A stretch of DNA of 64,000 nt from the UHGV virus genome UHGV-0098755; one strand, given 5' to 3'. Every line of letters starts with the position of its first letter. Positions within the stretch are counted from its first letter, which is position 1. The DNA comes from a virus. Below are positions 5,419 to 46,820 of the stretch, one piece after another. A program made the translations under genes and the position numbers. Below the pieces are notes generated by a model. It saw only the letters and a list, made by a program, of their open reading frames with translations. It was not told the DNA's origin and did no database searches.

Positions 5419-8115
5419 TCAGCCAAACAGGAAGTCTAACGAAGCTTTTTCTTCATAGTCCATGCCAGCCGATTCACACATACCCGCAAGCGGTTTAACA
5501 AACGATTTTTGGAACAAAGTTGAGTGGTCAATCCAAGATAGTACATCAGAACGAATTTCTTTTGGAAGTTCTGTACCCGACGGCCAAGCAATGCACTTGT
5601 CACCAAATGGATTTCCTTCACGTAATGGAAGAACCATTACCTTATTTCCATCCAAAATTGGAGCTACACCTAGACCACTAACAGCTCGACGATAAGTTAG
5701 CACCCCACGAATGTGGAACGGGCATTTAAATCCTGGCCAACCTTTATCGTCATATTTCGCTATATCGTTCGCGGTTTTTACTTCAGCAATAACTTTATAG
5801 TCAAGTTGACGATATTCTTTCTCGAAGTTCTTGTAGTATTCTTGGACAGACTCTTCACCTTCCTGAAGAATACGACGAATACTTTCTTCGAGAGCTTCTT
5901 GTACTGCTTTTGGTGTTGAACTCTGCTGAGTTTCCATACCCATGATTTTTAGATGTGGTTCAGCAAATCGCTTATCTTCCATATCATAAACGTTCAGAGC
6001 ATAACGTTTTTTCGCTTTCCAAAATCCACCGACACCCTTTGAACCAAGCGGAGGACAAGAAATAGCTTCACGGTCCATATGCATCAGATGCTCGCGGTTA
6101 TTCATATAATCACATAACTCACGATATGCAACATCAATCATAGGTTCCATCTTTTTCTTACCAAACTGATTCATGAATTCAACTAAATCATTTTGTTCTT
6201 TAAAGCGGTCAAGACCTACTTTTTCAATAACTTTATCTACACAGACATATACCGAATCAGTATCACCTGCTGCGATGAAATCTTCACCACCAGTTCCACA
6301 TACTTTATTCAGGTATTCATTAATTTTACGAGCAATCCACTGAATACCGACTTGACCAAAAATTGTGATAGCAGTAGCATTTCGCAAATCATAGTAACGG
6401 AAATGAATATTACCAAGAGCACCATAAAGACTGTTGATAAGAATTTTACGGTTTAGCTGATTTGTGTTAGCAAGTGTAGCTGCTTTTTCACATTCTTCAA
6501 TCAGACTATTGAGAACGGATTCGGTGTAATTCGATAGTTCATTTAAGAAATCATCACTGAACTTAACATATCGTTCAACTTCTGGTTTAGTTGAGCAAGA
6601 CCCTGCACCTTTCATAATAATCTTTTTAATAGCTTCGGCATTCATTTCTTCAGCGAACATTTTCTTTTTCCAATCTTTACGTTGGAAAAATACTTTAGCG
6701 ATTTCCTTTGGAATGATACCTTCTTGATGCTTATCATACATCCATCCATTCGGAGAACAAGAATATTCATCACTCGGTTTAGGAGCTGTTCCTGCAATAT
6801 ATTCATGAATTGGATGAACTTTAAACTGCCCACGAATAGTCTCAGGACTAATGTTAACCTGACGAATAATGCTAGGATACAGAGACGTCAAGTCAAAACT
6901 CATAATATATCGACGAGCAATTGGTTTAGGTTCAAACACAAATGCACCCGGAAAACTCTGTTTAACGTGCGAACCTTGTTGAGGAATAACCTTATGTTCA
7001 CCTTTCAATGAGTTAAAAATAATAGCATCCCAAGTTTTAATAGGACTCATTACACCGGAAAAAGGCATTTTAGCATAATAAGACATACTTAAAACTAGAT
7101 CGATAAACCCGCGAATTTTATCAATTGCTTGAACTGATTCTACGTCAATGATGTTATAACTAATGTATCGTTGATGATTAGTTTCACGAAGTTTATTAAT
7201 AGGACCGTCGTATGGTAATTTACCTTTTTTGGTTTCATGTTGAGCAACTGATTCCAAAGAGAATGACGGCAAATTAGTAAATGCGAATTTCTTATACAAA
7301 TCTAAATAATCAAGAATAGATACGCCATCAATAGAATAAATTTCTTTGCTACCGTACACATTTTGAATTAGTTTAGATTTTACTCGACCGATTGGAGAGA
7401 AGCGTTTCATACTACGTTCACCGAGAACCATTTTAACGCGATTCATGATATACGGAACGTCAAATCCCTCAATATTCCAACCAGTAAAAATAGCAGGTCG
7501 TTTCTGTTCCCAGAGATTGATATATTCCATGAGCATATCACGCTCATTATCGAATGGCATATAAATTACTCGGTCAAGAATTTCTTGAGGAACTTCATCA
7601 CCACCTTCACAGTCAAGCTTAGCAGCTAACTTTGCATCCCATTTTGATACTGAACCATACATTGAATTCAAAAGGTCGAAAACATAAAAACGATCGTCAA
7701 TTGAATCGTAATGAGTGATAGCATCAATTTCATATTCTGCTTTCATTGGGTCAGGAAATTTATCACCAGTAACCTCAATGTCACAGTTAGCTACACGAAC
7801 AAATTTTCGGTCATAAACAATTTCTGAACCGTATGTATCACTGATATAAGCGAGTTTAAAATCGTTCATACCGAGAGCTTCGAGACCGATGTCTTCCATT
7901 CGTTTCATCCAATCTCGAGCATCTTTCATTGATGGAAATTTTTGAGGAGCACAGTTTTTACCATAGATGTCTTTGTATTTTGACTCTTCCTTACAATGCC
8001 TAAACATAGTCGGAAGATATTCTACTTCACGAGTACGTTCCTTTCCGTTTTCATCAATATAACGTTCAACAATGTTATTTCCGACTGTTTCAATAGAGAT
8101 ATAAAATTCTTTCAT
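5419..8115 (-). CDS. 43: DNA polymerase (family B) gp43
   Basis: 898-aa ORF, same length as T4 gp43; exonuclease and polymerase motifs present (e.g. DIEV, YGDTDS-like AAGDTDSVYV). Confidence 0.97.
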   Translation of the reverse strand: MKEFYISIETVGNNIVERYIDENGKERTREVEYLPTMFRHCKEESKYKDIYGKNCAPQKFPSMKDARDWMKRMEDIGLEALGMNDFKLAYISDTYGSEIVYDRKFVRVANCDIEVTGDKFPDPMKAEYEIDAITHYDSIDDRFYVFDLLNSMYGSVSKWDAKLAAKLDCEGGDEVPQEILDRVIYMPFDNERDMLMEYINLWEQKRPAIFTGWNIEGFDVPYIMNRVKMVLGERSMKRFSPIGRVKSKLIQNVYGSKEIYSIDGVSILDYLDLYKKFAFTNLPSFSLESVAQHETKKGKLPYDGPINKLRETNHQRYISYNIIDVESVQAIDKIRGFIDLVLSMSYYAKMPFSGVMSPIKTWDAIIFNSLKGEHKVIPQQGSHVKQSFPGAFVFEPKPIARRYIMSFDLTSLYPSIIRQVNISPETIRGQFKVHPIHEYIAGTAPKPSDEYSCSPNGWMYDKHQEGIIPKEIAKVFFQRKDWKKKMFAEEMNAEAIKKIIMKGAGSCSTKPEVERYVKFSDDFLNELSNYTESVLNSLIEECEKAATLANTNQLNRKILINSLYGALGNIHFRYYDLRNATAITIFGQVGIQWIARKINEYLNKVCGTGGEDFIAAGDTDSVYVCVDKVIEKVGLDRFKEQNDLVEFMNQFGKKKMEPMIDVAYRELCDYMNNREHLMHMDREAISCPPLGSKGVGGFWKAKKRYALNVYDMEDKRFAEPHLKIMGMETQQSSTPKAVQEALEESIRRILQEGEESVQEYYKNFEKEYRQLDYKVIAEVKTANDIAKYDDKGWPGFKCPFHIRGVLTYRRAVSGLGVAPILDGNKVMVLPLREGNPFGDKCIAWPSGTELPKEIRSDVLSWIDHSTLFQKSFVKPLAGMCESAGMDYEEKASLDFLFG

Positions 8116-9128: not shown

Positions 9129-10088
9129 TCACTTCCACTGCATTTCACATGCCAATTGAATGAAAAGATATGCTAAATGTAATTCAGTATTAGCCGCAAT
9201 TCCATGGTACTGGTTATTTTCACCAACAATTTCATACATACGAATAATACTTTGCGGAGTTACGCGTGTATAGATTTCTTCAGCAAGTTTACCAACGAAC
9301 CACGAATAATCAGCCGCATATTTTGGTGCTAAAGCTCTGAGTTGTTTAACATCTTTATTTTTGAGAGACTCAAGAACATCATCAATAGCACCACGATCGT
9401 TAGTAACCAGTGATAAAATACCAGCATCCAAAACACCTTTAGATGAATAACTATCGAGCTCGCCAATAGTTTTACGAAAATCAGGAAAATTCTTTTTAAC
9501 CAAAGCTGCTACAACTTTCATATCAGCTATAGCAATTCCTTCACGCTTGCAGATTTCAGTCAATCGACGAATCATCTGCTTCATCATTTCAATTTTATCT
9601 TCATCGGTTGGTTGACCGAATGTAATAACTCGGCAGCGTGACTGAAGCGGTTTAATAATACCATCAATATTGTTAGCAGTAATAATAATACTACAGTTTG
9701 AACTATAAGCTTCCATAAAGGAACGAAGATGTCGCTGAGACTCTGCTAGCCCTGAGCGGTCAAATTCATCAATAACAATTACTTTTTGACGACCATCAAA
9801 TGAAGCTGCACTAGCAAAATTAGTCAAAGGACCACGAACGAAATCAATTTTACAATCTGACCCATTCACAAACATCATATCAGCATTTACATCATGACAC
9901 AATGCTTTTGCTACGGTTGTTTTACCTGTTCCTGGAGAAGGAGAATGAAGAATAATATGTGGAATCTTACCTTTACTTGTAATAGATTTAAAGGTTTCTT
10001 TATCAAAGGCGGGAAGAATACATTCATCGATAGTAGATGGACGATATTTCTGTTCAAGAATGTGTTCTTTTTCATTTACAGTAATCAT
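9129..10088 (-). CDS. 44: Clamp loader large subunit gp44 (AAA+)
   Basis: Start MITVNEKEH gives 319 aa; Walker [11 protein letters not shown]; T4 synteny. Confidence 0.95.
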
Positions 10089-10116
10089 AATTTCCTCATT
10101 CAAGTTTTAGTGTAAA

Positions 10117-10137
10117 TTATAAAGGGCCGAAGCCCTC
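10117..10137 (-). terminator. C(UUCG)G hairpin after gene 45
   Basis: AGGGC-UUCG-GCCCU then U-rich. Confidence 0.6.
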
Positions 10138-10139
10138 TA

Positions 10140-10826
10140 TTAAAAATCGTGGGTAGAATCAGCTTCAAGAGCTACTACATAATTCGCGTGTTCACCTTCA
10201 AATTTAGCAGCACCTTGTTTACCTTTTGCCCAGAGCAGAAGTTTATAATTTCCTGGTTGCATTTTCATATTTGCCATATTGATAATGAAATTAAATGTAT
10301 TTTCACCATCATAATCACCAAGAGTCAAAGAATATTTAACACGGGTTAAAGCAGAATCTTCTACTTTATTAAAACCGTTAATTACGATTTTACCTTCTTT
10401 TACTGTGATAGCAATTGTATCAATCTGCAGACCGCGAGATACACGCAACAGTTGTTGAAGGTCTTCAGCTTTAATTTCAGTAACAACAGATGCTACCGGG
10501 AATGGAATTGGTTTATTAGGAGCAACGACTGTACTCGGATCAGCTGCCGGCCAAAAAATTGTTGAACGGGCATCAGCAATTTTAATATTACCATCTTCTG
10601 ACTGGGAAATTTCTGCATCATCATTAACTAGAGACAGAATACCGAGAAAACCGTTCAAATCGTAAATCGCTACATCAAAATCAATAGTGTCAGAAATATT
10701 TGCTTCCGCATAAGTTGTACCATTAACCGCGCGAGTCATAATAAATTGACCGGATTTAAGCATAATACCGGAGTTAATAGTAGCGAAATTTTTAAGCAGA
10801 GCAGTAGTATCTTTAGACAGTTTCAT
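10140..10826 (-). CDS. 45: Sliding clamp gp45
   Basis: 228-aa ORF matching T4 gp45 length and sequence as recalled. Confidence 0.95.
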   Translation of the reverse strand: MKLSKDTTALLKNFATINSGIMLKSGQFIMTRAVNGTTYAEANISDTIDFDVAIYDLNGFLGILSLVNDDAEISQSEDGNIKIADARSTIFWPAADPSTVVAPNKPIPFPVASVVTEIKAEDLQQLLRVSRGLQIDTIAITVKEGKIVINGFNKVEDSALTRVKYSLTLGDYDGENTFNFIINMANMKMQPGNYKLLLWAKGKQGAAKFEGEHANYVVALEADSTHDF

Positions 10827-10834
10827 GTAATTTC

Positions 10835-10880
10835 CTTCAATTCAAATGAGATTTAATTTTATAACTAATTTAATAAAGCA
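10835..10880 (-). promoter_or_regulatory. MotA-dependent middle promoter upstream of gene 45
   Basis: Minus strand AATTGCTTTATT (MotA box), ~11 nt, TATAAA. Confidence 0.55.
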
Positions 10881-10881
10881 A

Positions 10882-11271
10882 TTAACGATTAAAATCAGCA
10901 GCAATTGTTTCAGCAACAATTTGAGCAGCAATAATTAGACGTTCATCTGCATTACCGCAATAATCATCTTCAAGGCGTTCACCACATGAAGTCATAATAA
11001 ATTTAGCACCAGCATTTAGAGATTCTGTCGTATGTTTGCGCATTAGTTCAATCCATTTATCACTTACTTCACGATCGATGGCTTCATAATATGCATGACG
11101 AGCAGGTGCAGATTTAATTTTGTTCTGAATAACTTCCATTGCGTTATCAGAAAGAGACAAAACCCATGCTCGACGAATTTTATTTTGGTTTTGTGGATTT
11201 GATTCAGAACGCACGTATTTTGGCTGAATATCTTTTACATCAACAGTATAATTCACAGTAATTTTAGTCAT
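10882..11271 (-). CDS. rpbA: RNA polymerase-binding protein RpbA
   Basis: 129-aa ORF in the T4 rpbA slot between 45 and 45.2/46. Confidence 0.8.
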
Positions 11272-23776: not shown

Positions 23777-23955
23777 TTAGAAATAGACTTTTCGCCGTTA
23801 GAATAATAAACTTCGAGTTTAGCGCGGCCATTTTTAATTTGAATAACCTTGGCTGTCATCAAAGTTCCATACCCATAGTAAACTGCAACTTCATCACCTA
23901 CATATACCGCGCTTCCGCGGTAATCATGGATATAATCAGTTCCTTCTAGCATCAT
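23740..23955 (-). CDS. Small hypothetical protein
   Basis: 71-aa ORF. Confidence 0.4.
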   Translation of the reverse strand: MMLEGTDYIHDYRGSAVYVGDEVAVYYGYGTLMTAKVIQIKNGRAKLEVYYSNGEKSISKWKYGDCMVKLG

Positions 23956-24215
23956 TTAAAGTATTCCCGCAATTGGTCAAATCCACCAATATGACTTCCA
24001 TCAGGAGCAAATACCTGAGGCATTGTCAAGCCGATTTGAGTATCACGACCTAGTTTAGTCAGAAGCTCAGCAATTTTCTCATCATCAAAAACACCTTTTT
24101 CCGGCATAATGTTGATAAATTCAAACGGCTGTTTCTTCACGGTCAAAAGACGTTTTGCATTATCGCAATACACACATTTGTGGATGTTGCTATCATAACC
24201 ATATACTTTAAACAT
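23952..24215 (-). CDS. nrdC: Thioredoxin/glutaredoxin NrdC
   Basis: 87-aa ORF with CVYC active site, matching T4 NrdC as recalled. Confidence 0.9.
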   Translation of the reverse strand: MFKVYGYDSNIHKCVYCDNAKRLLTVKKQPFEFINIMPEKGVFDDEKIAELLTKLGRDTQIGLTMPQVFAPDGSHIGGFDQLREYFK

Positions 24216-24474: not shown

Positions 24475-24760
24475 ATCGGTGTTTACAATGGCGACATTTA
24501 TAACGAAGATTACTAGTCTGCCAATGAACTAATTGTACCTGTTCAGTACCGCATTCAGGACAATTAGGAACGTTTTTAGAAGCCCTTTCGCGACGTTTAA
24601 CCATGACCATTACAGAATCCCAATTAACAGGAGGGCTATAATCATCACAACCATGAATCTTTCCACGCATTTCCAAATCGTCTTCTTCACCGGCCATAAT
24701 AATTTTAATTAAACTGGAATTACTTGAAGCTGCAATGTCTTCTAATAGACGCTTTTTCAT
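24446..24760 (-). CDS. Zinc-ribbon protein
   Basis: 104-aa ORF with CPEC...CRHCKH pairs. Confidence 0.5.
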
Positions 24761-25686
24761 TTCAATACCTCAATAGCATTACGTAAACCATTTGCTTTTG
24801 CATTAAGAGCTTTTAACAATTTGGTGTGTTCTGCAATTTGGGCTTCAACTTCAATCAAACGGGCATTGAGATATTCACGTTCTTCACTCAGATTATCAAC
24901 CTTTTCTGCTTTAGGTTCTTTTACAACTTGCTTATATGTATTAGGGTTCTTCAGTTTAATTAGAATGCGTGAACTGTACAGCATTGAACCATTATCTTCG
25001 GTTTCGTCATACATTTCCACTACGTCCATCATCTCCACCATCGTGCAGAGTTTATAAGACAACGAACGAATAATTTTGTTGTGCTTATTAATTTCTCTAG
25101 CTGTCATGGTGCCGAGATTACGTGAGTAATAATAAGGAACCTGGATATTAATTAATACTGATGAACCACCTGGCTTGTGTGTTACTTCATCAGCAATAAC
25201 CCAATCCTTAACATGAACTGTATTTGTACGGTCATCGCCCGCGGTAAATAGTTTACGAGCATGCTTAAAAAGCATATTCACTTGGTCATTGAATTGACAA
25301 GCGAATTTATCAGCAAATTTAGTTTCGGGAATGGTAGATAACCAATCAGCCAAATGGGTCTTTTTAACATCGTTAACAATAGTAAATTCAACCAAATCGG
25401 TTATAGATGTCTCAGATTTAATGAAGCTCGGCTTCATAAAGTTTTTAATGTTATCACTAGCTACAGTAGAAGATAACAGACGAGAACGTTTAAACCATTC
25501 AAGCAAATTACCTAACGAATGAGAATAAGCGTTTTGAGTATCTTTACAGATATGATTTTCCTGGCCAACATATTGAAGGAAATCACGAAGAATATTATTG
25601 ATTACTGCCCTGTGTCCTATCTGATAATTACGATGTTTAGTAATAAGACTGTCAAAATAATCAATATAATGTTTACGAGTTTTCAT
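24757..25686 (-). CDS. Hypothetical protein with C-terminal coiled coil (paralog family member 1)
   Basis: 309-aa ORF; heptad-rich C-terminal ~50 aa; internal LCTMVEMMDVVEMY segment resembling the next gene. Confidence 0.6.
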   Translation of the reverse strand: MKTRKHYIDYFDSLITKHRNYQIGHRAVINNILRDFLQYVGQENHICKDTQNAYSHSLGNLLEWFKRSRLLSSTVASDNIKNFMKPSFIKSETSITDLVEFTIVNDVKKTHLADWLSTIPETKFADKFACQFNDQVNMLFKHARKLFTAGDDRTNTVHVKDWVIADEVTHKPGGSSVLINIQVPYYYSRNLGTMTAREINKHNKIIRSLSYKLCTMVEMMDVVEMYDETEDNGSMLYSSRILIKLKNPNTYKQVVKEPKAEKVDNLSEEREYLNARLIEVEAQIAEHTKLLKALNAKANGLRNAIEVLK

Positions 25687-25738
25687 GTTCTTCTCACTTT
25701 GTTAATGATTTATACTCCGAGCCATCCTTGGCTTTAAA

Positions 25739-26740
25739 TTACTTAATTAACTGTAAAGCTTGTTCCAGACGATCAAGACGATTAACGGATTCTTCCCAAA
25801 TCTTTTTAGCCTGCTCATATTCTTTCTGCGCTTTATTAGAAATTTCTAGAACTTCTTTATAAGCTTTTTCTAGTGCAATAACTTCTGGACGAATTTCTAC
25901 CGGTTCAGGTGAATCATCAAGATTATCCATTAGTTCCTCAAGGGTAGTTTCTTCTTTAGGAGTATTCACAACTTCATCACATTTTTGTTGGTAAATTTCT
26001 TTATCAGTCGGTGAGTACGCGCACTTTACTTCACGAAGGCTAATTACGAGTTTATATCCTTCCCAACCGCATATATTCTTAAAAGGATATGTATGAATAT
26101 TTTCTACTGTTTCCATACAAAGTAATGCGGTCTCTAATTGACGAGTTATAGTACTAGCAATTGAGAAAAATTTATTAATATTCTTTTGGTTAGTTTCTGG
26201 TGTAAAAAATCCATAATTCACAAAAATAGATACTTTATTTTTATCAAGTTCATATTCTTTTATGATAATCATATCAGAAGCCAAAGGATGAATTTGACGA
26301 TAATCGCCATAACATAATTTAGAAGCTGATTTTAGAATCTGTCCTTTGAAAAGTCTGAAATTACTAATCCAACGACGAGTAAAAATATTCTCAGGGTCTT
26401 CTTTATTATTAAGATGATAAGAATTAACATCACCAAACCAATTATATCCTACTACATCTTTGGTTCGTTTAATTTCTTTCCCAAAATTACCAAGAATATC
26501 CCGATTAACCAAATATGAAAGAAGACGAGACTCTTTAAAGGTTTTCTTGATAAGATCTTTATCTACACGGCTAGAAATTTTACGAATTTCATGAATAAAT
26601 TTAGTAGAAGAAACAATACTTGCATCAACACTATTGAGCCATTGATTGATAATAGAAAGAACGATATTTTGACCAAACATCGGTATAGCTTTATCATCAA
26701 TAACGCTATTGAATGATTTGATATATTCGTTACGAGTCAT
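25739..26740 (-). CDS. Hypothetical protein with C-terminal coiled coil (paralog family member 2)
   Basis: ORF 25739..26770; likely start MTRNEY at 26738-26740 with GGAG; shares LFKGQILKSASKL-type segment with the next gene. Confidence 0.6.
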   Translation of the reverse strand: MTRNEYIKSFNSVIDDKAIPMFGQNIVLSIINQWLNSVDASIVSSTKFIHEIRKISSRVDKDLIKKTFKESRLLSYLVNRDILGNFGKEIKRTKDVVGYNWFGDVNSYHLNNKEDPENIFTRRWISNFRLFKGQILKSASKLCYGDYRQIHPLASDMIIIKEYELDKNKVSIFVNYGFFTPETNQKNINKFFSIASTITRQLETALLCMETVENIHTYPFKNICGWEGYKLVISLREVKCAYSPTDKEIYQQKCDEVVNTPKEETTLEELMDNLDDSPEPVEIRPEVIALEKAYKEVLEISNKAQKEYEQAKKIWEESVNRLDRLEQALQLIK

Positions 26741-26764
26741 ATTAATCTCCTCAGTAGAAAGTAA

Positions 26765-26805
26765 GAACATTATACCACATCCTTGTGACGAAGTAAACTA
26801 GTTTA
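26765..26805 (-). promoter_or_regulatory. T4-type early promoter
   Basis: GTTTAC, 17 nt, TGTGGTATAATG on the minus strand. Confidence 0.7.
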
Positions 26806-27823
26806 GTGCATTTAGTGCATTGTTCAGTTTAGAACGCTGCTTTGTCAGATTTTGAACCCTTGACTGAGCTTGTTCTAACACCTTTTCAGCTTCTAGCACT
26901 TCATTGGTCGCTTTAACGAGTTCATCATCTACTGCCTTAAGAGACTTCTCAATCGCGTCAGCGTGCCATTTTTCAACAGGTTTAAGACTCGGATTTTCAA
27001 TAGGAAGAAAATTCACTTTATTGAATTTCCATGCATCCTTATTACCTGAACTATACATCCAAAATTTAGGATCGTTTGATAAGTAATTGGATAAATTTAA
27101 ATTTAAGTTATCTTGTACTTCTTGCTTTTTCTCTTGTGTAACTTCGTCCTTTCTCAAAAAATCATATTTAAATGAAACGATCATATCAAGTTCATATGTT
27201 GTCGTATCTAACTTAAATCGTTCAAAACGAGGTAAAATCTTAGATTGAACAGCAGAAACAACATCCATATACTTAAATGCTTCTGTCAACTGTGATTTAA
27301 GGCATTCACAAATTGAAAGAGAATTTTTAGTATTAGGCTTAAAGCTAATTCGTGCAGTTCTATTATTTTCTTTTAATGGTCTTACTTCCATTTGAAGAGT
27401 ATAACCATCAAATTTCAGATTCTTTAAGTTAATATCAGAACCTTTTAATCGACTAGCAGTAGACAAAATTTGTTTTAATTGTCTACGGAACAGAGCAATA
27501 AATCTCCATTCAAGACGATAATGATTTGGATTAAAAAATCCTGTTGATAAATCGACCTTACTTTGACCAACGCCTTGAACAAATAGAGGATTTTTATAAT
27601 CAACAGTTTTACAGAAATCGGTGAGCTGCTCACGAGCAGTCATTTGAGTAATATACCCCGCTTTACTAAAATGACGTAACCATTCACTGCTATTCATATA
27701 CTTAAAGTGAATATCACGATTAACTTTATCAGGGTCTAAATTATTTTGGCACAAAAATGTCATAACATCACGAGTATAACTGGCATTACGAACCATATCT
27801 TCAATTTGAGAACGAGTTTTCAT
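26798..27823 (-). CDS. Hypothetical protein with C-terminal coiled coil (paralog family member 3)
   Basis: 341-aa ORF; ALFRRQLKQILSTASRL segment similar to member 2; coiled-coil tail. Confidence 0.6.
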   Translation of the reverse strand: MKTRSQIEDMVRNASYTRDVMTFLCQNNLDPDKVNRDIHFKYMNSSEWLRHFSKAGYITQMTAREQLTDFCKTVDYKNPLFVQGVGQSKVDLSTGFFNPNHYRLEWRFIALFRRQLKQILSTASRLKGSDINLKNLKFDGYTLQMEVRPLKENNRTARISFKPNTKNSLSICECLKSQLTEAFKYMDVVSAVQSKILPRFERFKLDTTTYELDMIVSFKYDFLRKDEVTQEKKQEVQDNLNLNLSNYLSNDPKFWMYSSGNKDAWKFNKVNFLPIENPSLKPVEKWHADAIEKSLKAVDDELVKATNEVLEAEKVLEQAQSRVQNLTKQRSKLNNALNALN

Positions 27824-27831
27824 GGTGTTCC

Positions 27832-28743
27832 TTAAGATTTAAGTAAATCAACAATTTTAATTAATTTTTCACGCTCAGATTTAGCTTTACTACTCAATCC
27901 AGATAGTCTGAAAATTTCATCGTCATATTGTTGAATAGAAATATTCAGCTCTTCAATTTGCTTATTAAAATAATCAATTTGTTCAGAATGTTTTTCGTTA
28001 CTACGAACTGGTGCAGGTTTTGTAGGCAATTTAGTTGAACTGGATTCATCCGGGCGATAAATTAAAATACAACTTGAACCAATCGGACATTTAGCACCAG
28101 ACACATATTCTAATGTTCCAGCTTCTTTTAAAATTTCAAAAGCTAAACAGAGATGATGCCCCATATTAACATAATCTGTAGAGTGAGCTCTGACGTAATA
28201 ATCATCTCCACGAGTGCTAAATTTAAAGCATTTAAGGTCTTCTGTATTATTAGTTTTAAAAATCATTTGTTTATCTAGACCTTTAGCCAATCGAGCGCCT
28301 AATGCTAATAATCGTCGTTGATTTTCCCACAAATCTGCGATCATTTGGTCAAATGATAATTTCGGCATTAGTCGACCATAAAGGTCATATCCTTTATTAT
28401 AATTACGAAGGATTTCACTCGCGTTAATACGAGACAATGCTCCAATTTTATTAAGGGCTTTCATAATGCGATTAGATAAACCCATTCCAGACCCGTTTGT
28501 TCGCTGTAAATGTTTTTCTAATCCAAATCCAATATCAACTTTAAATTTATCTAAAATTTCAGCATGAACATCTCTGTCAATAACATTCAAATCCAAAGTT
28601 GGGTTAAATCTATGAAAAAATTTATCTGGCTCTCCACGACGAAGTACAGTCCATTCATTCATCATTTTTTTATTAACTAAAGATTTAATTACTGCATTGA
28701 CATTATTAATTACTACTGACATATTTTCCTCACTCAATTTCAA
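27832..28743 (-). CDS. Hypothetical protein with C-terminal coiled coil (paralog family member 4)
   Basis: 303-aa ORF; coiled-coil tail; weaker similarity to members 2-3. Confidence 0.55.
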   Translation of the reverse strand: MKLSEENMSVVINNVNAVIKSLVNKKMMNEWTVLRRGEPDKFFHRFNPTLDLNVIDRDVHAEILDKFKVDIGFGLEKHLQRTNGSGMGLSNRIMKALNKIGALSRINASEILRNYNKGYDLYGRLMPKLSFDQMIADLWENQRRLLALGARLAKGLDKQMIFKTNNTEDLKCFKFSTRGDDYYVRAHSTDYVNMGHHLCLAFEILKEAGTLEYVSGAKCPIGSSCILIYRPDESSSTKLPTKPAPVRSNEKHSEQIDYFNKQIEELNISIQQYDDEIFRLSGLSSKAKSEREKLIKIVDLLKS

Positions 28744-29137: not shown

Positions 29138-29192
29138 AATAATCTCAATTAAAAGGGCTTAGAACCATTATACCATCCTTGGTATAAAGCGG

Positions 29193-29720
29193 TTATGCGA
29201 GTACCGTCTTTAACCGTTCTTCAAACTTCCGAAGAGTATTTTGGCGTTCAGCTCTTTGCTTTTTGTAAGTTTCAATACGCTCTGAAATGAGAGTGTATCG
29301 TTCATTTACTGATTCTTTCATAAAATCAGGAATTTCACGAGAAGCTTTAATCTCGTCAAATTTATCAATAACAGCTTGCTCTTCAGCAATTAAGTTATCA
29401 TACATCAAAATATCTTTCTTGATGAACTCAATATCTTCTTGAGTTACACGAGATAATTTAGATGCTTTATCCTTTTTGTACTGTTCGTTAGTATCACGAG
29501 ACCAGTGTAATGTACGATTTTTATTCGTATTCTTGTAAATTTCTACAATACCAATCTCATCAATAATAACGATCCAATTCCAGCGGGATTTGTAAATTTG
29601 TCCTCCATCAACAGTGATTTCACCTCCGATTGAGATGTCGTTAAAGAACTTGCTTTGTGCTTCAGATTTAAATTTACCATCGTTGTAATTTACCAAGTTG
29701 AAAATATCTTTAGCGTTCAT
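29193..29720 (-). CDS. Hypothetical protein with C-terminal coiled coil
   Basis: 175-aa ORF directly downstream of an early promoter. Confidence 0.55.
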   Translation of the reverse strand: MNAKDIFNLVNYNDGKFKSEAQSKFFNDISIGGEITVDGGQIYKSRWNWIVIIDEIGIVEIYKNTNKNRTLHWSRDTNEQYKKDKASKLSRVTQEDIEFIKKDILMYDNLIAEEQAVIDKFDEIKASREIPDFMKESVNERYTLISERIETYKKQRAERQNTLRKFEERLKTVLA

Positions 29721-29737: not shown

Positions 29738-29792
29738 TTGATAGTTGTATAGTACCACAGAGGAACAGTCTTGTAAACCACTAAAAGAAACT
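29738..29792 (-). promoter_or_regulatory. T4-type early promoter
   Basis: GTTTACA, 17 nt, TGGTACTATACAAC; upstream of gene starting at 29720. Confidence 0.7.
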
Positions 29793-30184: not shown

Positions 30185-31165
30185 TTATTTTAGAAGAGTA
30201 ACCTCAGCAATTTCTTCCCAACCATTTTTGTCGGTCATAATAAAGTCAGCAAGATAAAGAGCAGTACGCAGTGAAACATTGCGTAAACGATTAACATTAA
30301 CTTTCATCCATGATAATGCTTTATAAGTTTCTTCATCAGAAAGACCGCGCTTTTGCATCATGTCAGTTGAAAGAATAACATCTTCAACCCTGACCATAAT
30401 TTCTTCATTAGTGTGAACACCCAAATCTAAATAAACCGAGCGGGACACTAATGCTTGTAAGTGTGGAGCAAGTTTAGTACCACGGTCTAATTCGCGGTCA
30501 ATGTCAACGTTTGTGATAAAAACAATCGTTCCTTTAAATTCAAACTCACGGTCAATGCCTTTTTCTTCTAAGTAAGAAGATGCAGTGCTCCAGCAGACTT
30601 TACGGGTCTCTCCAGTGTCCAGAGCAGCTTTTAGAAGATTAAGAATGTCCATATCAGAGAAAACATCCACATCATCAATCAAAAGGACAGAATTCTCTTC
30701 ACGATTATTCCAAAGCTGTTCATAAAGACCAATACCAGAGATTTTACCATTAATGCTTTTATATTCAATGTATCCATTATCATTTGCTTTATTTAAAGCT
30801 TTATCTAAAGAATACGTTTTACCAATACCTGCTGCGCCAGAGATAATTAATGAACGAATATTTCCATTAATAATACCATTCGTCATCATTCCCATAACAT
30901 TAAATCTTTTATTAATGCGGGTTTTCATATCTTCATACGATTCTTTAACTTCTTCAACTTTTACACCATCATATGAAATATCTGATTTGTAAACCCAAAC
31001 ACCGCGACGTTTACCGTCAATTTCAACAAAAACTTTACCATCTCCTTGTGCATCTACCGGAGCATTATCTGGGAACCATTCGCCTAAGAGCTCAAAAGTT
31101 CCAGAGATTTCTTTACCGAAGTAGATACCCTTATTGATAGTTACAGTTTTCATTTTATTCTCCAA
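30185..31165 (-). CDS. AAA+/P-loop ATPase
   Basis: 326-aa ORF; Walker A GAAGIGKTY, Walker B VLLIDDVD. Confidence 0.7.
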   Translation of the reverse strand: MENKMKTVTINKGIYFGKEISGTFELLGEWFPDNAPVDAQGDGKVFVEIDGKRRGVWVYKSDISYDGVKVEEVKESYEDMKTRINKRFNVMGMMTNGIINGNIRSLIISGAAGIGKTYSLDKALNKANDNGYIEYKSINGKISGIGLYEQLWNNREENSVLLIDDVDVFSDMDILNLLKAALDTGETRKVCWSTASSYLEEKGIDREFEFKGTIVFITNVDIDRELDRGTKLAPHLQALVSRSVYLDLGVHTNEEIMVRVEDVILSTDMMQKRGLSDEETYKALSWMKVNVNRLRNVSLRTALYLADFIMTDKNGWEEIAEVTLLK

Positions 31166-31177
31166 TTTTACATTTGT

Positions 31178-31222
31178 TTTGATAGGGTAATAGTATCACA
31201 CTACTACCCTGCTGTAAACAAT
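31178..31222 (-). promoter_or_regulatory. T4-type early promoter
   Basis: GTTTACAGCAGGG...GTGATACTATTACC pattern upstream of the AAA+ ATPase gene. Confidence 0.65.
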
Positions 31223-31486
31223 TTATTTTAATGTTTGCCAAATTTTTACTGCTTCGCGACGAGATACTTCTACGGCGCCAAGTTCTATAGCTTTTTGGCG
31301 TCGCCGAGCGTGTAAGTCATAATGTTTAATGCGTTTATCTTGAAACCAAGAACGTTTCATTCCTATTGCTTCTGCCATTTCGTGAAGCTCTTCAATATCT
31401 CCATCAGTGAACATATGACAATTTTTAGTTGGATGACCGCGAAGTTTCCATCCATGATTCATTAAAACATCTACGTAAACTGTCAT
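31223..31486 (-). CDS. DUF4031-like small protein
   Basis: 87-aa ORF with MTVYVD...HMFTD...WFQ...HYDL pattern recalled for DUF4031. Confidence 0.5.
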   Translation of the reverse strand: MTVYVDVLMNHGWKLRGHPTKNCHMFTDGDIEELHEMAEAIGMKRSWFQDKRIKHYDLHARRRQKAIELGAVEVSRREAVKIWQTLK

Positions 31487-31757: not shown

Positions 31758-32243
31758 TTATTCCATTTCTACTATATGCATGTTCTTTTTGCTATCAAAA
31801 TATATGTTTTTAACTATTAACTCAGAATTAATTGGCAGTAAAAACTCTCTTTCATAATCTACCATACAAAGATTATCATAAAGCTTGTTAAGCTTATCAT
31901 CGTCAGTTTGGCCAGATTCTTCAATTGCGATTAAATTTTCTAAAATGTCAATCATAGCAGTCGAATAGTCGAAAACGTTTGCATTTTTTAACACTACTAA
32001 AACATTAGTCATATAGCGTTCTGCCGCAAACGTTTCAGCTATATGAGACTCACTGCTAAAGGAAGTTATTCTTTTAAATTTGATTCTCCTATTAACTTCA
32101 AACTTATAAGATAGCACTTCCTCTATTGTAAGTCCTCTAAAAAGCACGTCTTTAATCTCAAGTTTGTCTTTAATGTAATCATTAACACGCTTATGATTAA
32201 AATCATTAATTTTGTTGCCAAGGCATTGCATTAAAATATGCAT
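31758..32243 (-). CDS. Hypothetical protein
   Basis: 161-aa ORF between an early promoter and a terminator. Confidence 0.5.
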   Translation of the reverse strand: MHILMQCLGNKINDFNHKRVNDYIKDKLEIKDVLFRGLTIEEVLSYKFEVNRRIKFKRITSFSSESHIAETFAAERYMTNVLVVLKNANVFDYSTAMIDILENLIAIEESGQTDDDKLNKLYDNLCMVDYEREFLLPINSELIVKNIYFDSKKNMHIVEME

Positions 32244-32370: not shown

Positions 32371-33384
32371 TCATTTATAATAACTTCGGTGGTTTTCAAG
32401 ATAAACCCTCTCAAGGAAGTCATCCCAGAAACCCATGTCTACTTTTTGCTGCATACCGTTCTTAGAAGCTTCAATTGATGCTGCTTCTACTTGATCGACC
32501 ACATCTTCCAAAAACTCTTGAACCGTTTTAAATGGATGTTTACCAAGCTTCACGTCGAGAATAAATGGAGCGTCTTGGAGTGGATAGACTAAGTCACCAG
32601 TTTTGTAAATTTCCAATAGTTGGAGTCCACCACGACAAGCATGACTCAGAGCTTTCCAGTCAATACCCTCATTCGCTTCAGCCTTACGAGCGCGTTCACC
32701 ATATTCGGCATCAAGTTTATTCAAAGACTGCTTAAGCTCAATAAGAGAAAGTGTTGTCTGATATTTACGACCCAACACGGTATAAAACGTTTGTGGGCCT
32801 GTTTTCTCATGATTATGGAATACCCATTCGCAGAATTCGTTCTCTGGAAGACGATGCTTAATATCTTCAACTTTAGTGCGACGTTGCTTAATAGAACCAT
32901 CTTCTTGGTAATCAACCCACTGGTCAGGGATTTGATTAACTACTTTCAATACATCACGTAATGCGGCCAAACGAGAACCCTTGACACCGTATTTAGAAGC
33001 TTGCTTGCGAACATATCCTAAATAGGATTTCATGTTAGTCGTATAAAAACGAGAACGATTGTCTTGAATGAACTTCCATACATCAGGCAAATCAGATTTA
33101 ACTACCAGTTCAGGTGGAGTGTGGAGCATATCCAATGCTACAGTTTCACCATCTGCTGCTAATTTAAAGAAATACTTAAGACTGTACAGTTCATGGTCAA
33201 TATCATCTTTAGTGTTTTTAGATGATGTGTTGTTAGTGTTTTTACTCATATGCTCTTTAACATTTCCAATAAGAATATCACGAGCAGGAGGAACAAAGAT
33301 TTCTTTAAAATCTACATCAGATTCTGGAGTAGAAGTTCCATAAAGATGACTACCAAAATAGCTTTTCATTACTGTTTTCATCAT
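32371..33384 (-). CDS. Pol-beta-superfamily nucleotidyltransferase
   Basis: 337-aa ORF; N-terminal FGSHLYGTSTPESDVDF (GS-x10-SDVD) plus downstream DIDHE acidic patch; strong terminator immediately after stop. Confidence 0.65.
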   Translation of the reverse strand: MMKTVMKSYFGSHLYGTSTPESDVDFKEIFVPPARDILIGNVKEHMSKNTNNTSSKNTKDDIDHELYSLKYFFKLAADGETVALDMLHTPPELVVKSDLPDVWKFIQDNRSRFYTTNMKSYLGYVRKQASKYGVKGSRLAALRDVLKVVNQIPDQWVDYQEDGSIKQRRTKVEDIKHRLPENEFCEWVFHNHEKTGPQTFYTVLGRKYQTTLSLIELKQSLNKLDAEYGERARKAEANEGIDWKALSHACRGGLQLLEIYKTGDLVYPLQDAPFILDVKLGKHPFKTVQEFLEDVVDQVEAASIEASKNGMQQKVDMGFWDDFLERVYLENHRSYYK

Positions 33385-46226: not shown

Positions 46227-46820
46227 TTATTTCAGAGAATTAATATATTCCTGAACATCGGCAGAGGTAGTTTCAACCCCAGAAATATTACCGTTAAAGG
46301 TTTCAACTCGAGCGAGAGTGTCTTCAATATCAACCTTAGTCAGCGCTGCAATTTCAACTACATCATCAGCAGTACTAATTCCAAGTGCATTCGCTGCACG
46401 AGTTTCACGGATATATTCCAATTTAACTGCAAGTTCTTGGCGAGCATCATCCAATTCAACTACTTTCTTGGCGATTTCAATTCGCATTTCAGCATAACCA
46501 TCAGCTTTAGTAGTCAACTGTTCAGCTGTTCGACGATATAGCAAACCGAGTTTAGCATGCATTGTTACATCTTGACCCTCGGAAAGAAGCTTGCGAATTT
46601 CACGCTCTTTTGATTCGGCCTGCTTATTCTTTTCAATAACAAGTTCACGAATACGTTTTTCTTCATTAATAGATTTAACAGAAGCAGTTTTTAGATCTTT
46701 AATTTTATCAAGTAGTTTTGCTGCTGCAGCAGTATACTGTTCTTCAACAGATAGATTTTTAGCCATAGCAGAACCAAGTTTAGTGCGAATAAACTCAACA
46801 ATTTTCTTCAGCATGTTCAT
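46227..46820 (-). CDS. Coiled-coil protein (possible PspA/IM30-like)
   Basis: 197-aa largely helical ORF with amphipathic N-terminus; family assignment tentative. Confidence 0.45.

What the first reader, a model, noticed from the sequence alone, without database searches (positions are those of the whole stretch)
24757..28743. Tandem array of four 300-340-aa paralogs with C-terminal coiled-coil tails
Four consecutive minus-strand genes (309, ~333, 341, 303 aa) each end in a ~45-60-residue heptad-rich helical tail, and at least members 2 and 3 share internal segments (LFKGQILKSASKL vs ALFRRQLKQILSTASRL; LLCMETVENIHTY vs LCTMVEMMDVVEMY in member 1). A fifth smaller coiled-coil-tailed ORF follows at 29193-29720. 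Tandem diversified paralogs with a common oligomerisation tail are typical of arms-race loci (host-takeover or anti-defence families), and none is functionally assigned here.
Basis: seen in the sequence. Interest (0 to 1): 0.55.

Follow-up and report, generated by a model that had tools for sequence, protein, structure and literature searches.

The report
T4 nrdC.3–nrdC.6 anti-defence paralog array
Four neighbouring early genes of a T4-like phage (nrdC.3, nrdC.4, nrdC.5, nrdC.6) are diverged copies of one protein design, and because one copy (nrdC.5) is already known to switch off the bacterial immune protein Dsr1, the other three are good candidates for inhibitors of other bacterial defences.

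Summary
The window is a Tequatrovirus (T4-like) genome. The four genes are the orthologues of T4 nrdC.3, nrdC.4, nrdC.5 and nrdC.6.

- nrdC.3, nrdC.4 and nrdC.5 are homologous by profile-profile comparison: 3–4 at 98–99% probability, 4–5 at 93%. A metagenomic protein also bridges all three.
- nrdC.6 has no significant sequence signal. It joins through Foldseek hits (E 3e-5), the same order of secondary-structure elements, and the same linker-plus-tail design.
- All four end in a 45–55-residue heptad helix after a proline-rich linker.
- The fifth ORF (nrdC.8) is not a paralog and its tail is not significantly heptad.

- The claim that none is functionally assigned is wrong. T4 nrdC.5, 95% identical to the copy here, counteracts the SIR2 defence protein Dsr1 (Srikant et al., eLife 2022).
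- The genes sit behind T4 early-type promoters, are dispensable and are variably present. They recombine into natural chimeras and evolve under relaxed purifying selection (dN/dS 0.11–0.18).
- I found no enzyme signature.

**Verdict:** known genes, with a modest new family link.

The parts
24757..25686 (-). nrdC.3 orthologue, 309 aa; family member 1 (Pfam Phage_T4_Y04OP / phrog_1435)
   Evidence: ORF. Annotated as nrdc.3 in Shfl2, which is 96% identical. phrog_1435 E 9e-116. hhalign to the nrdC.4 family 98.5-99.1%. Occurs as three allelic classes at about 95%, 76% and 60% identity; T4 itself is the 60% class.
25739..26740 (-). nrdC.4 orthologue, 333 aa (the ORF extends to an upstream ATG at 26770); family member 2 and the central link of the family
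   Evidence: phrog_1435 E 4e-168. AF2 model pLDDT 83.4: N-terminal helical domain 3-84, alpha/beta core 88-235, disordered linker 262-284, helix 285-332.
26798..27823 (-). nrdC.5 orthologue, 341 aa; family member 3; DUF7235. Its T4 orthologue counteracts Dsr1.
   Evidence: Pfam PF23882 404 bits against a cut-off of 30. 95% identical to T4 NrdC.5. Anti-Dsr1 genetics in PMC9391042. hhalign to the nrdC.4 family 93.4%, E 2.6e-7.
27832..28722 (-). nrdC.6 orthologue, 296 aa (TTG-started ORF to 28743); probable distant family member 4 (PF26899 / phrog_2257)
   Evidence: AF2 model pLDDT 78.5 with the same alpha-beta-beta-alpha-beta-beta core order, linker and C-terminal helices. Foldseek hits of the nrdC.4 model to nrdC.6 of JS10 and Sf25. 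The sequence-profile link is not significant.
24760..24912 (-). nrdC.3 C-terminal heptad helix (residues 259-309), ending LRNAIEVLK
25742..25888 (-). nrdC.4 C-terminal helix (residues 285-333), ending LEQALQLIK
   Evidence: AF2 helix 285-332. Heptad periodicity 0/2000 shuffles.
26801..26971 (-). nrdC.5 C-terminal heptad helix (residues 285-341), ending LNNALNALN
27835..27996 (-). nrdC.6 C-terminal helical hairpin (residues 243-296), ending LIKIVDLLKS
   Evidence: AF2 helices 243-272 and 277-295. Periodicity 1/2000 shuffles.
26769..26797 (-). T4 early-type promoter (TTTACT-17-TATAAT with extended TG) directly upstream of nrdC.4
   Evidence: Similar GTTTAC...TGGTA(T/C)TAT elements lie upstream of nrdC.8 (29749-29777) and nrdC.10 (31190-31218), and a TGGTATAAT element lies upstream of nrdC.7.
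29193..29720 (-). nrdC.8, 175 aa: a conserved neighbour, NOT a family member
   Evidence: phrog_2274 only. No similarity to the four. 99-100% conserved within Tequatrovirus, dN/dS 0.06. Tail periodicity not significant.

Best explanation
The four genes are the T4 accessory genes nrdC.3, nrdC.4, nrdC.5 and nrdC.6, and they are diverged tandem duplicates of one modular protein.

The shared design has four parts:
- a variable N-terminal helical head;
- a conserved alpha/beta core;
- a disordered proline-rich linker;
- a C-terminal heptad helix that ends in a shared h-x-x-A-h-x-L-L-K-type motif.

They are transcribed early, before any virion protein is made. They act as non-enzymatic binding proteins that disarm host immune sensors.

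Shown: the T4 orthologue of nrdC.5 is sufficient in trans to restore infection of Dsr1-carrying E. coli.

Inferred:
- NrdC.5 binds Dsr1 directly and blocks either its capsid-protein sensor or its NADase.
- NrdC.3, NrdC.4 and NrdC.6 do the same to other sensors, plausibly other Dsr1 variants or Avs7-type receptors that carry the same capsid-sensing domain.
- The common tail makes homo- or hetero-oligomers that add avidity against oligomeric defence proteins.
For: Identity of the genes: the 5.8-kb region is 96-98% identical to many Tequatrovirus genomes and is annotated nrdc.3 to nrdc.6 in Shfl2 and T4.

Homology:
- nrdC.3-nrdC.4 98.5-99.1% and nrdC.4-nrdC.5 93.4% by hhalign.
- The metagenomic protein P0234 hits the nrdC.4 family at 95%, nrdC.5 at 95% and nrdC.3 at 75%.
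- The extreme N-terminus M(K)TR is shared by nrdC.3, nrdC.4 and nrdC.5.
- nrdC.6 is linked by Foldseek (E 3.3e-5 and 3.5e-4, probability 1.0) and by identical element order.

Function of one member: T4 nrdC.5 expressed from a plasmid restores plating of a T4 deletion mutant on MG1655 carrying ECOR17 dsr1 (PMC9391042). Dsr1 is triggered by the major capsid protein through a sensor domain shared with Avs7 and many other effectors (bioRxiv 10.64898/2026.01.04.697583).

Early expression: T4 early-type promoters lie upstream of nrdC.10, nrdC.8, nrdC.7 and nrdC.4. The eLife paper calls nrdC.5 an early gene.

Accessory and plastic:
- tblastn finds nrdC.6 in 742 phage records, nrdC.3 in 654, nrdC.5 in 582 and nrdC.4 in 554.
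- Array composition differs by genus: 6-5-4-3 in Tequatrovirus, 6-5like-3 in Mosigvirus, 6-5like-4 in Dhakavirus, one copy in Jiaodavirus and two in Acinetobacter phage Acj61. The array always lies between nrdC.10 and nrdC.
- Natural deletions and in-frame chimeras occur between members.

Selection: dN/dS is 0.18 for nrdC.3, nrdC.4 and nrdC.5 and 0.11 for nrdC.6, against 0.00-0.06 for gp49, nrdC, nrdC.8 and nrdC.10.

No enzyme signature:
- There are no Pfam, NCBIfam or PDB sequence hits beyond the DUF families.
- Positions conserved across nrdC.3, nrdC.4 and nrdC.5 are almost all hydrophobic core residues.
Against: - Only nrdC.5 has any functional data, those data are genetic, and its mechanism is unknown.
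- No binding or oligomerisation was tested here, and I could not run multimer prediction.
- Tail-only profile comparisons beat reversed-sequence controls in all six pairs, but none is individually significant.
- dN/dS below 0.2 does not itself show an arms race.
- T4's own nrdC.6 carries a 1-nt deletion that removes the tail, so at least one laboratory phage does without an intact copy.
Confidence: 0.55

Rival explanations
1. Trigger masking. The proteins do not touch the defence proteins. They bind phage or host components that the sensors read, such as the major capsid protein gp23 or its complexes, or they act as oligomeric mimics of a virion part, so the sensor never sees its trigger.
Against: - The genes are early, whereas capsid and tail proteins are late.
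- The nrdC.6 model did not reproduce the hit.
- No capsid-protein fold was found.
Confidence: 0.15
2. Only nrdC.5 is an anti-defence gene. The other three paralogs have other host-takeover roles or are drifting duplicates on their way to loss.
For: Members are frequently lost, frameshifted or fused:
- ACG-C40 has a deletion of nrdC.5 to nrdC.3.
- nrdC.4 is split in phage G8.
- T4 nrdC.6 is frameshifted.
- Pinarejo retains only a remnant of nrdC.6.

No functional data exist for these three in the searchable literature.
Against: - dN/dS of 0.11-0.18 shows each is maintained by purifying selection.
- Each is present in 550-740 sequenced phages.
- Syntenic relatives persist in Klebsiella and Acinetobacter phages.
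- The in-frame chimera in phage Manna keeps an intact head-plus-tail protein.
Confidence: 0.22
3. They are enzymes that repair the damage done by defences, for example by rebuilding NAD+ after SIR2 cleavage as the NARP pathways do.
For: Dsr1 is an NAD+-depleting SIR2 protein, and NAD+ reconstitution is a known phage counter-measure (papers listed).
Against: - There are no hits to any enzyme family in Pfam, NCBIfam or PDB.
- Residues conserved across the family are hydrophobic, with no catalytic-looking constellation.
- The head, linker and coiled-coil architecture is atypical for a metabolic enzyme.
Confidence: 0.04
4. The similarity is an artefact of low-complexity helical sequence, and the four genes are unrelated.
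For: The tails alone are not significantly similar. Sequence profiles of nrdC.6 are not significant against the others.
Against: - The nrdC.3-4 and nrdC.4-5 alignments cover the globular N-terminal 220-250 residues, not just the tail.
- PHROGs and Pfam already place nrdC.3 and nrdC.4 in one family.
- Structure search links nrdC.6.
Confidence: 0.03

Closest known systems
T4 NrdC.5 (Pfam DUF7235 / PF23882), the anti-Dsr1 gene of Srikant, Guegler and Laub, eLife 2022
   Same: Member 3 of the array is its orthologue: 95% identity, full-length DUF7235 match and the same genomic position. nrdC.4 and nrdC.3 are detectable homologues of it.
   Different: Nothing differs for member 3 itself. For members 1, 2 and 4 the anti-Dsr1 activity is untested, and they do not match the DUF7235 model. 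The mechanism of NrdC.5 has not been described in the searchable literature.
Pfam PF26897 Phage_T4_Y04OP and PHROG phrog_1435 (T4 nrdC.3 and nrdC.4); PF26899 / phrog_2257 (nrdC.6)
   Same: Members 1 and 2 both match phrog_1435, and their homologues carry PF26897. nrdC.6 homologues carry PF26899. All are families of unknown function restricted to T4-like phages: a profile search of 1.84 billion representatives found only 10.
   Different: These resources keep nrdC.3/nrdC.4, nrdC.5 and nrdC.6 as three separate families. The link between them and the known anti-Dsr1 gene is what the present analysis adds.
DSAD1, the SPbeta-phage inhibitor of DSR2
   Same: It is a functional analogue: a phage protein that neutralises a defence-associated sirtuin which senses a virion protein. 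DSR2 is triggered by the tail tube protein and repressed by DSAD1 (abstracts listed).
   Different: The target is different (DSR2, not Dsr1) and the phage lineage is different. No sequence or structure comparison with DSAD1 was made here, so this is an analogy of role, not membership.
Phage tail terminator proteins (lambda gpU, T5 p142, Mu, SaPI1 DUF3168, R2 pyocin collar)
   Different: - There is no sequence similarity (5-13% identity) and no Pfam hit.
- The nrdC proteins carry an extra helical head, a linker and a coiled-coil tail.
- They are early and dispensable rather than late and essential.
- The result was not reproduced with the nrdC.6 model.

Membership tests
DUF7235 / NrdC.5 (anti-Dsr1) | Full-length match to PF23882 above the gathering score | tested here: met
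   nrdC.5 (26798-27823) scores 404 bits against a cut-off of 30, covering 1-341. nrdC.3, nrdC.4 and nrdC.6 do not match this model; they are related only at profile-profile or fold level.
DUF7235 / NrdC.5 (anti-Dsr1) | Neutralises Dsr1-mediated defence | not testable with these tools
   Shown for T4 NrdC.5 in PMC9391042. The copy here is 95% identical. It is untested for the paralogs.
Phage_T4_Y04OP (PF26897) / phrog_1435 | Significant match of nrdC.3 and nrdC.4 to one shared family model | tested here: met
   phrog_1435 gives E 9e-116 for nrdC.3 and 4e-168 for nrdC.4. hhalign gives 98.5-99.1%. Homologues carry precomputed PF26897.
One superfamily comprising nrdC.3, nrdC.4, nrdC.5 and nrdC.6 | Collinear profile-profile homology between the member families | tested here: inconclusive
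   Met for 3-4 (E about 1e-15) and 4-5 (93.4%, E 2.6e-7), with the bridging protein P0234. Not met for nrdC.6 (1-16% probability). nrdC.6 is supported only by Foldseek E 3.3e-5 and 3.5e-4 and by identical element order.
Coiled-coil oligomerisation tail | Long C-terminal helix with heptad (3.5-residue) hydrophobic periodicity | tested here: met
   AF2 helices. Periodicity against 2000 shuffles: nrdC.4 0, nrdC.5 0, nrdC.6 1, nrdC.3 36. For nrdC.8 the feature is not met (400/2000).
Coiled-coil oligomerisation tail | Actual homo- or hetero-oligomer formation | not testable with these tools
   Only monomer prediction was available. This needs multimer modelling, SEC-MALS or cross-linking.
Tail terminator (gpU-like) proteins | Fold match to solved tail terminators | tested here: inconclusive
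Tail terminator (gpU-like) proteins | Late, essential virion or assembly gene with sequence-family membership | tested here: not met
   Early-type promoters. The genes are deleted in viable phages. No Pfam or PHROG structural annotation.

The most novel reading that the evidence does not exclude
The nrdC.3-nrdC.6 family, with its relatives in Klebsiella and Acinetobacter T4-like phages, could be a virion-derived domain turned to immune evasion.

On this reading a tail-terminator-like core was fused to a variable head and a common coiled-coil tail. It is expressed early as an oligomeric decoy or plug, and each paralog is tuned to a different member of the large receptor family that senses capsid or tail proteins (Dsr1, Avs7 and relatives).

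The shared tail would let paralogs co-assemble into mixed oligomers, giving one particle several specificities.
Probability: 0.12. Interest if true: 0.75.

Novelty: new member of a known kind. Interest (0 to 1): 0.45.

Why it matters
T4 is the reference lytic phage, and most of its roughly 130 non-essential genes still have no known role. If nrdC.3, nrdC.4 and nrdC.6 are paralogs of the one gene known to defeat Dsr1, then three uncharacterised genes become concrete anti-defence candidates with an obvious test: plating deletion mutants on defence-system panels.

It also gives a natural system for asking how a phage diversifies one inhibitor scaffold against a diversifying family of immune sensors. 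The naturally occurring head/tail chimeras (phage Manna, protein P0120) and the tail-less T4 nrdC.6 serve as ready-made domain-swap and truncation controls.

Tried and rejected
- **Sequence search of PDB.** I queried the nrdC.4 and nrdC.6 alignments and nrdC.5. Only designed helical repeats and noise came back.
- **NCBIfam.** Only sub-threshold coiled-coil-type noise (DndD, PgrA, prefoldin).
- **HMMER profile search.** The nrdC.3+nrdC.4 alignment against 1.84 billion representatives returned only 10 proteins, all phage-type. There are no bacterial or distant relatives to borrow a function from.
- **Tail-only profile comparisons with reversed-sequence controls.** Real tails always scored above reversed tails, but never significantly. 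Tail homology cannot be proven from the tails alone.
- **Direct nrdC.3-nrdC.5 profile comparison without the bridging protein.** It gave 6% probability. The 96.7% seen came from my having placed the bridging protein P0234 in the nrdC.3 set, so I discarded that number.
- **Literature search by protein accessions and locus tags.** It returned only unrelated papers, through DOI string collisions.
- **Literature search for a renamed anti-Dsr1 gene.** Nothing beyond the 2022 paper.
- **The DRT1 paper's description of nrdC.8 as a nucleotide reductase.** I did not rely on it, because nrdC.8 has no such domain.
- **Search for further paralogs elsewhere in the window with family HMMs.** None found.
- **nrdC.8 as a fifth member.** Rejected.

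Full report
**What the region is.** The window has about 35% G+C with almost all genes on the minus strand. The 5.8 kb around the finding is 96-98% identical to hundreds of Tequatrovirus (T4-like) genomes.

Annotated relatives name the four genes nrdC.3, nrdC.4, nrdC.5 and nrdC.6 (Shigella phage Shfl2; T4 NC_000866). They lie between nrdC (thioredoxin, 23952-24215) and nrdC.7, nrdC.8, nrdC.9 and nrdC.10.

| Gene | Window coordinates | Length |
|---|---|---|
| nrdC.3 | 24757-25686 | 309 aa |
| nrdC.4 | 25739-26740 (ORF runs to 26770) | 333 aa |
| nrdC.5 | 26798-27823 | 341 aa |
| nrdC.6 | 27832-28722 (TTG-started ORF to 28743) | 296 aa |

The shorter nrdC.4 start follows a GAGGAG Shine-Dalgarno sequence. 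It lies downstream of a T4 early-type promoter (TTTACT-17-TATAAT with extended TG, 26797-26769) whose -10 overlaps the longer start.

**Is the paralogy real?** For nrdC.3, nrdC.4 and nrdC.5 it is.
- Single sequences already link nrdC.3 and nrdC.4: 26% identity over 226 aa, E 6.5e-7. Both match phrog_1435.
- I built family alignments from database homologues and from orthologues in fetched phage loci.
- hhalign gave nrdC.3-nrdC.4 98.3% and then 98.5-99.1% (E down to 2e-18).
- nrdC.4-nrdC.5 gave 79% with narrow families and 93.4% (E 2.6e-7) once Dhakavirus and Mosigvirus relatives were added. The alignment is collinear over about 250 columns.
- The direct nrdC.3-nrdC.5 comparison is weak (6%). 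However, the metagenomic protein P0234 (315 aa) matches the nrdC.4 family at 95%, the nrdC.5 family at 95% and the nrdC.3 family at 75%.
- I discarded an inflated nrdC.3-nrdC.5 value, which arose because P0234 had been placed in the nrdC.3 set.
- The three also share the extreme N-terminus M(K)TR.

**nrdC.6.** Sequence profiles do not reach significance. The best result is 15.8%, E 1.6e-3, against the merged nrdC.3+4+5 profile. That alignment does fall on the two most conserved motifs of both sides.

The case for membership is structural.
- The AF2 model of nrdC.4 has pLDDT 83.4. Its order is helical head 3-84, three strands, helix 119-142, two strands, helix 185-208, two strands, disordered linker 262-284, helix 285-332.
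- The AF2 model of nrdC.6 has pLDDT 78.5. Its order is helical head 3-107, helix 124-145, two strands, helix 187-200, two strands, disordered linker 228-243, helices 243-272 and 277-295.
- Foldseek of the nrdC.4 model against viral models hits nrdC.6 of phage JS10 (E 3.3e-5, probability 1.0) and of Sf25 (E 3.5e-4).
- In a scan of every ORF in the window, the nrdC.6 HMM ranks nrdC.4 third and nrdC.3 fifth.

I rate membership of nrdC.6 as likely, at about 0.75, but not proven.

**The tails.** All four proteins end with a proline-rich linker followed by 45-55 helical residues.
- Hydrophobic periodicity at 3.5 residues beats shuffles: 0/2000 for nrdC.4 and nrdC.5, 1/2000 for nrdC.6 and 36/2000 for nrdC.3.
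- The last residues are alike: [27 protein letters not shown] (LRAAVLALK in Dhakavirus) and LIKIVDLLKS.
- Only 5 of 71 ORFs of at least 100 aa in the window have such a C-terminal heptad stretch, and 4 of these are in this locus.
- Tail-only profile comparisons exceed reversed-sequence controls in all six pairs, but none is significant alone.
- Whether the tails oligomerise could not be tested.
- nrdC.8 (29193-29720) is not a paralog. Its tail is an ordinary amphipathic helix (400/2000 shuffles), and it is highly conserved (dN/dS 0.06).

**What is known.**
Srikant, Guegler and Laub (eLife 2022, PMC9391042) found that an evolved T4 clone with compensatory deletions could no longer infect E. coli ECOR17.
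  - Deleting dsr1 from the host restored infection.
  - dsr1 on a plasmid protected MG1655.
- The copy here is 95% identical to T4 NrdC.5 and matches Pfam DUF7235 over its full length.
- A 2026 preprint reports that Dsr1 is activated by the phage major capsid protein. It does so through a sensor domain shared with Avs7 and with about 9,000 other defence proteins carrying many different effectors.
- I found no paper giving a mechanism for NrdC.5 or any function for nrdC.3, nrdC.4 or nrdC.6.
- Pfam and PHROGs keep nrdC.3/4 (PF26897 'Phage_T4_Y04OP'), nrdC.5 (PF23882) and nrdC.6 (PF26899) as separate families.

**Distribution and plasticity.** tblastn against 50,697 phage records finds nrdC.6 in 742, nrdC.3 in 654, nrdC.5 in 582 and nrdC.4 in 554.
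- nrdC.3 exists as three allelic classes at about 95%, 76% and 60% identity. T4 itself carries the 60% class.
- The array differs by genus but always sits between nrdC.10 and nrdC:

| Genus or phage | Array |
|---|---|
| Tequatrovirus | 6-5-4-3 |
| Mosigvirus | 6, 5-like (RB69p097), 3 |
| Dhakavirus | 6, small ORF, 5-like, 4 |
| Klebsiella phage JD18 | one member, JD18_070 (96% to the merged profile, E 2.6e-9) |
| Acinetobacter phage Acj61 | two adjacent members, p120 and p121 (Foldseek hits E5E4A1 and E5E4A2) |

- A full HMMER search of 1.84 billion representative proteins with the nrdC.3+4 profile found only 10 proteins, all of this phage type.
- Natural rearrangements join members:
  - Salmonella phage Manna encodes an in-frame NrdC.6(1-~270)::NrdC.4(~254-333) protein, with the junction at DDEI|VNTPKE.
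  - Protein P0120 is NrdC.5(145-273)::NrdC.3(~136-309).
  - ACG-C40 has an out-of-frame deletion from early nrdC.5 into the nrdC.3 tail.
  - Sf25 nrdC.6 has an internal 82-residue tandem duplication.
  - Phage G8 has a split nrdC.4.
  - T4's nrdC.6 has a 1-nt deletion that removes its tail.

  This matches the microhomology-driven deletions described for T4 in the eLife paper.
- Pairwise dN/dS between the window and its orthologues is 0.18 for nrdC.3, nrdC.4 and nrdC.5 and 0.11 for nrdC.6. It is 0.00-0.06 for gp49, nrdC, nrdC.8 and nrdC.10. The genes are therefore maintained but less constrained, not positively selected gene-wide.

Other two-layer alpha/beta sandwiches (RRF, nitroreductase, S6) appear lower in the list. 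The nrdC.6 model gave only helical-hairpin matches. I treat this as a fold-level resemblance and a lead, not as homology. The genes are early and dispensable, unlike tail terminators.

**How it most likely works.**
- *Shown:* the gene identities; homology among nrdC.3, nrdC.4 and nrdC.5; the heptad tails; early-type promoters; the accessory and recombining nature of the locus; and the published anti-Dsr1 activity of the nrdC.5 orthologue.
- *Inferred:* the proteins are non-enzymatic binders. This rests on three points:
  - There is no enzyme-family hit.
  - Family-wide conserved positions are nearly all hydrophobic core residues plus T2, R3, D146 and the tail L325 and A328.
  - The variable head gives each paralog a different target.
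- *Inferred:* the shared tail oligomerises.
- The simplest model is that NrdC.5, made early, binds Dsr1 before the capsid protein appears and blocks sensing or NADase activation. NrdC.3, NrdC.4 and NrdC.6 would do the same to other sensors, with the large family carrying the Dsr1/Avs7 capsid sensor as obvious candidates.
- The rivals are trigger masking or mimicry, nrdC.5 being the only anti-defence member, an NAD-repair enzyme, and a low-complexity artefact. Each is weighed in its own section.

**Verdict.** These are known genes, one with a known anti-defence role. What is new is the family link, which makes the other three testable anti-defence candidates, together with the natural chimeras and the possible tail-terminator-like core. 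Interest is moderate.

Noticed in passing
L009 (T4 NC_000866) 10067-10894, compared with window 27832-28130: The reference T4 nrdC.6 carries a 1-nt deletion (GAAGAGCTG-ATATT) relative to this window and most relatives. The frameshift gives a 275-aa product that lacks the C-terminal helical tail. This is either a laboratory-strain pseudogene or a natural tail-less variant.
   Followed up: partly
L015 (Salmonella phage Manna) 4215-5252: An intact 345-aa ORF is an in-frame chimera of the NrdC.6 head (residues 1-~270) and the NrdC.4 linker plus tail (~254-333). The junction is at DDEI|VNTPKE, and nrdC.5 is deleted. It amounts to a natural domain swap between paralogs.
   Followed up: yes
P0120 (metagenomic or phage protein, 299 aa); L010 (ACG-C40) 6805-7216; P0122 (Sf25): There are three further rearrangements inside the array. 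P0120 joins NrdC.5(145-273) to NrdC.3(~136-309) at KFNKVN/QFNDQVN. ACG-C40 has an out-of-frame deletion that removes most of nrdC.5, all of nrdC.4 and most of nrdC.3. Sf25 nrdC.6 has an internal 82-residue tandem duplication.
   Followed up: yes
window 24757-25686 compared with T4 (L009 6934-7860): nrdC.3 is only 60% identical to T4's copy, while the flanking genes are 95-99% identical. Three allelic classes (about 95%, 76% and 60%) circulate among Tequatrovirus and Mosigvirus genomes, which indicates mosaic replacement of this one gene.
   Followed up: partly
window 31223-31486 and 31758-32243: Relative to T4, two extra genes sit between nrdC.10 and nrdC.11 (32371-33384, RlaP-type nucleotidyltransferase). 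One is a DUF4031 protein (87 aa). The other is a 161-aa ORF with no Pfam hit, in the same position as the ORF annotated 'ModB' in phage ACG-C40.
   Followed up: partly
window 46227-46820 (- strand): This 197-aa ORF is the only other ORF in the window with a C-terminal heptad-rich helical stretch. The sequence looks helical throughout, and it has no Pfam family hit.
   Followed up: partly
window 25687-25738, 26741-26797, 29138-29192: A CAAGGATG(G) element recurs in the spacer of the promoter-like sequences upstream of nrdC.3, nrdC.4 and nrdC.7. nrdC.3 and nrdC.5 both begin with the identical 12 bases ATGAAAACTCGT.
   Followed up: no
window 30185-31165 (nrdC.10): The AAA/STAND-like NTPase nrdC.10 is far more widely conserved than the array. 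tblastn finds it in 1,312 phage records, including Vibrio, Aeromonas and Acinetobacter phages and jumbo phages. It served as a synteny anchor here, and its function is unassigned.
   Followed up: partly
PMC13275509 (DRT1 paper): That paper groups T4 nrdC.8 with 'nucleotide reductases'. nrdC.8 has no reductase domain in Pfam, PHROGs or NCBIfam, and the name only reflects its map position next to nrdC.
   Followed up: partly
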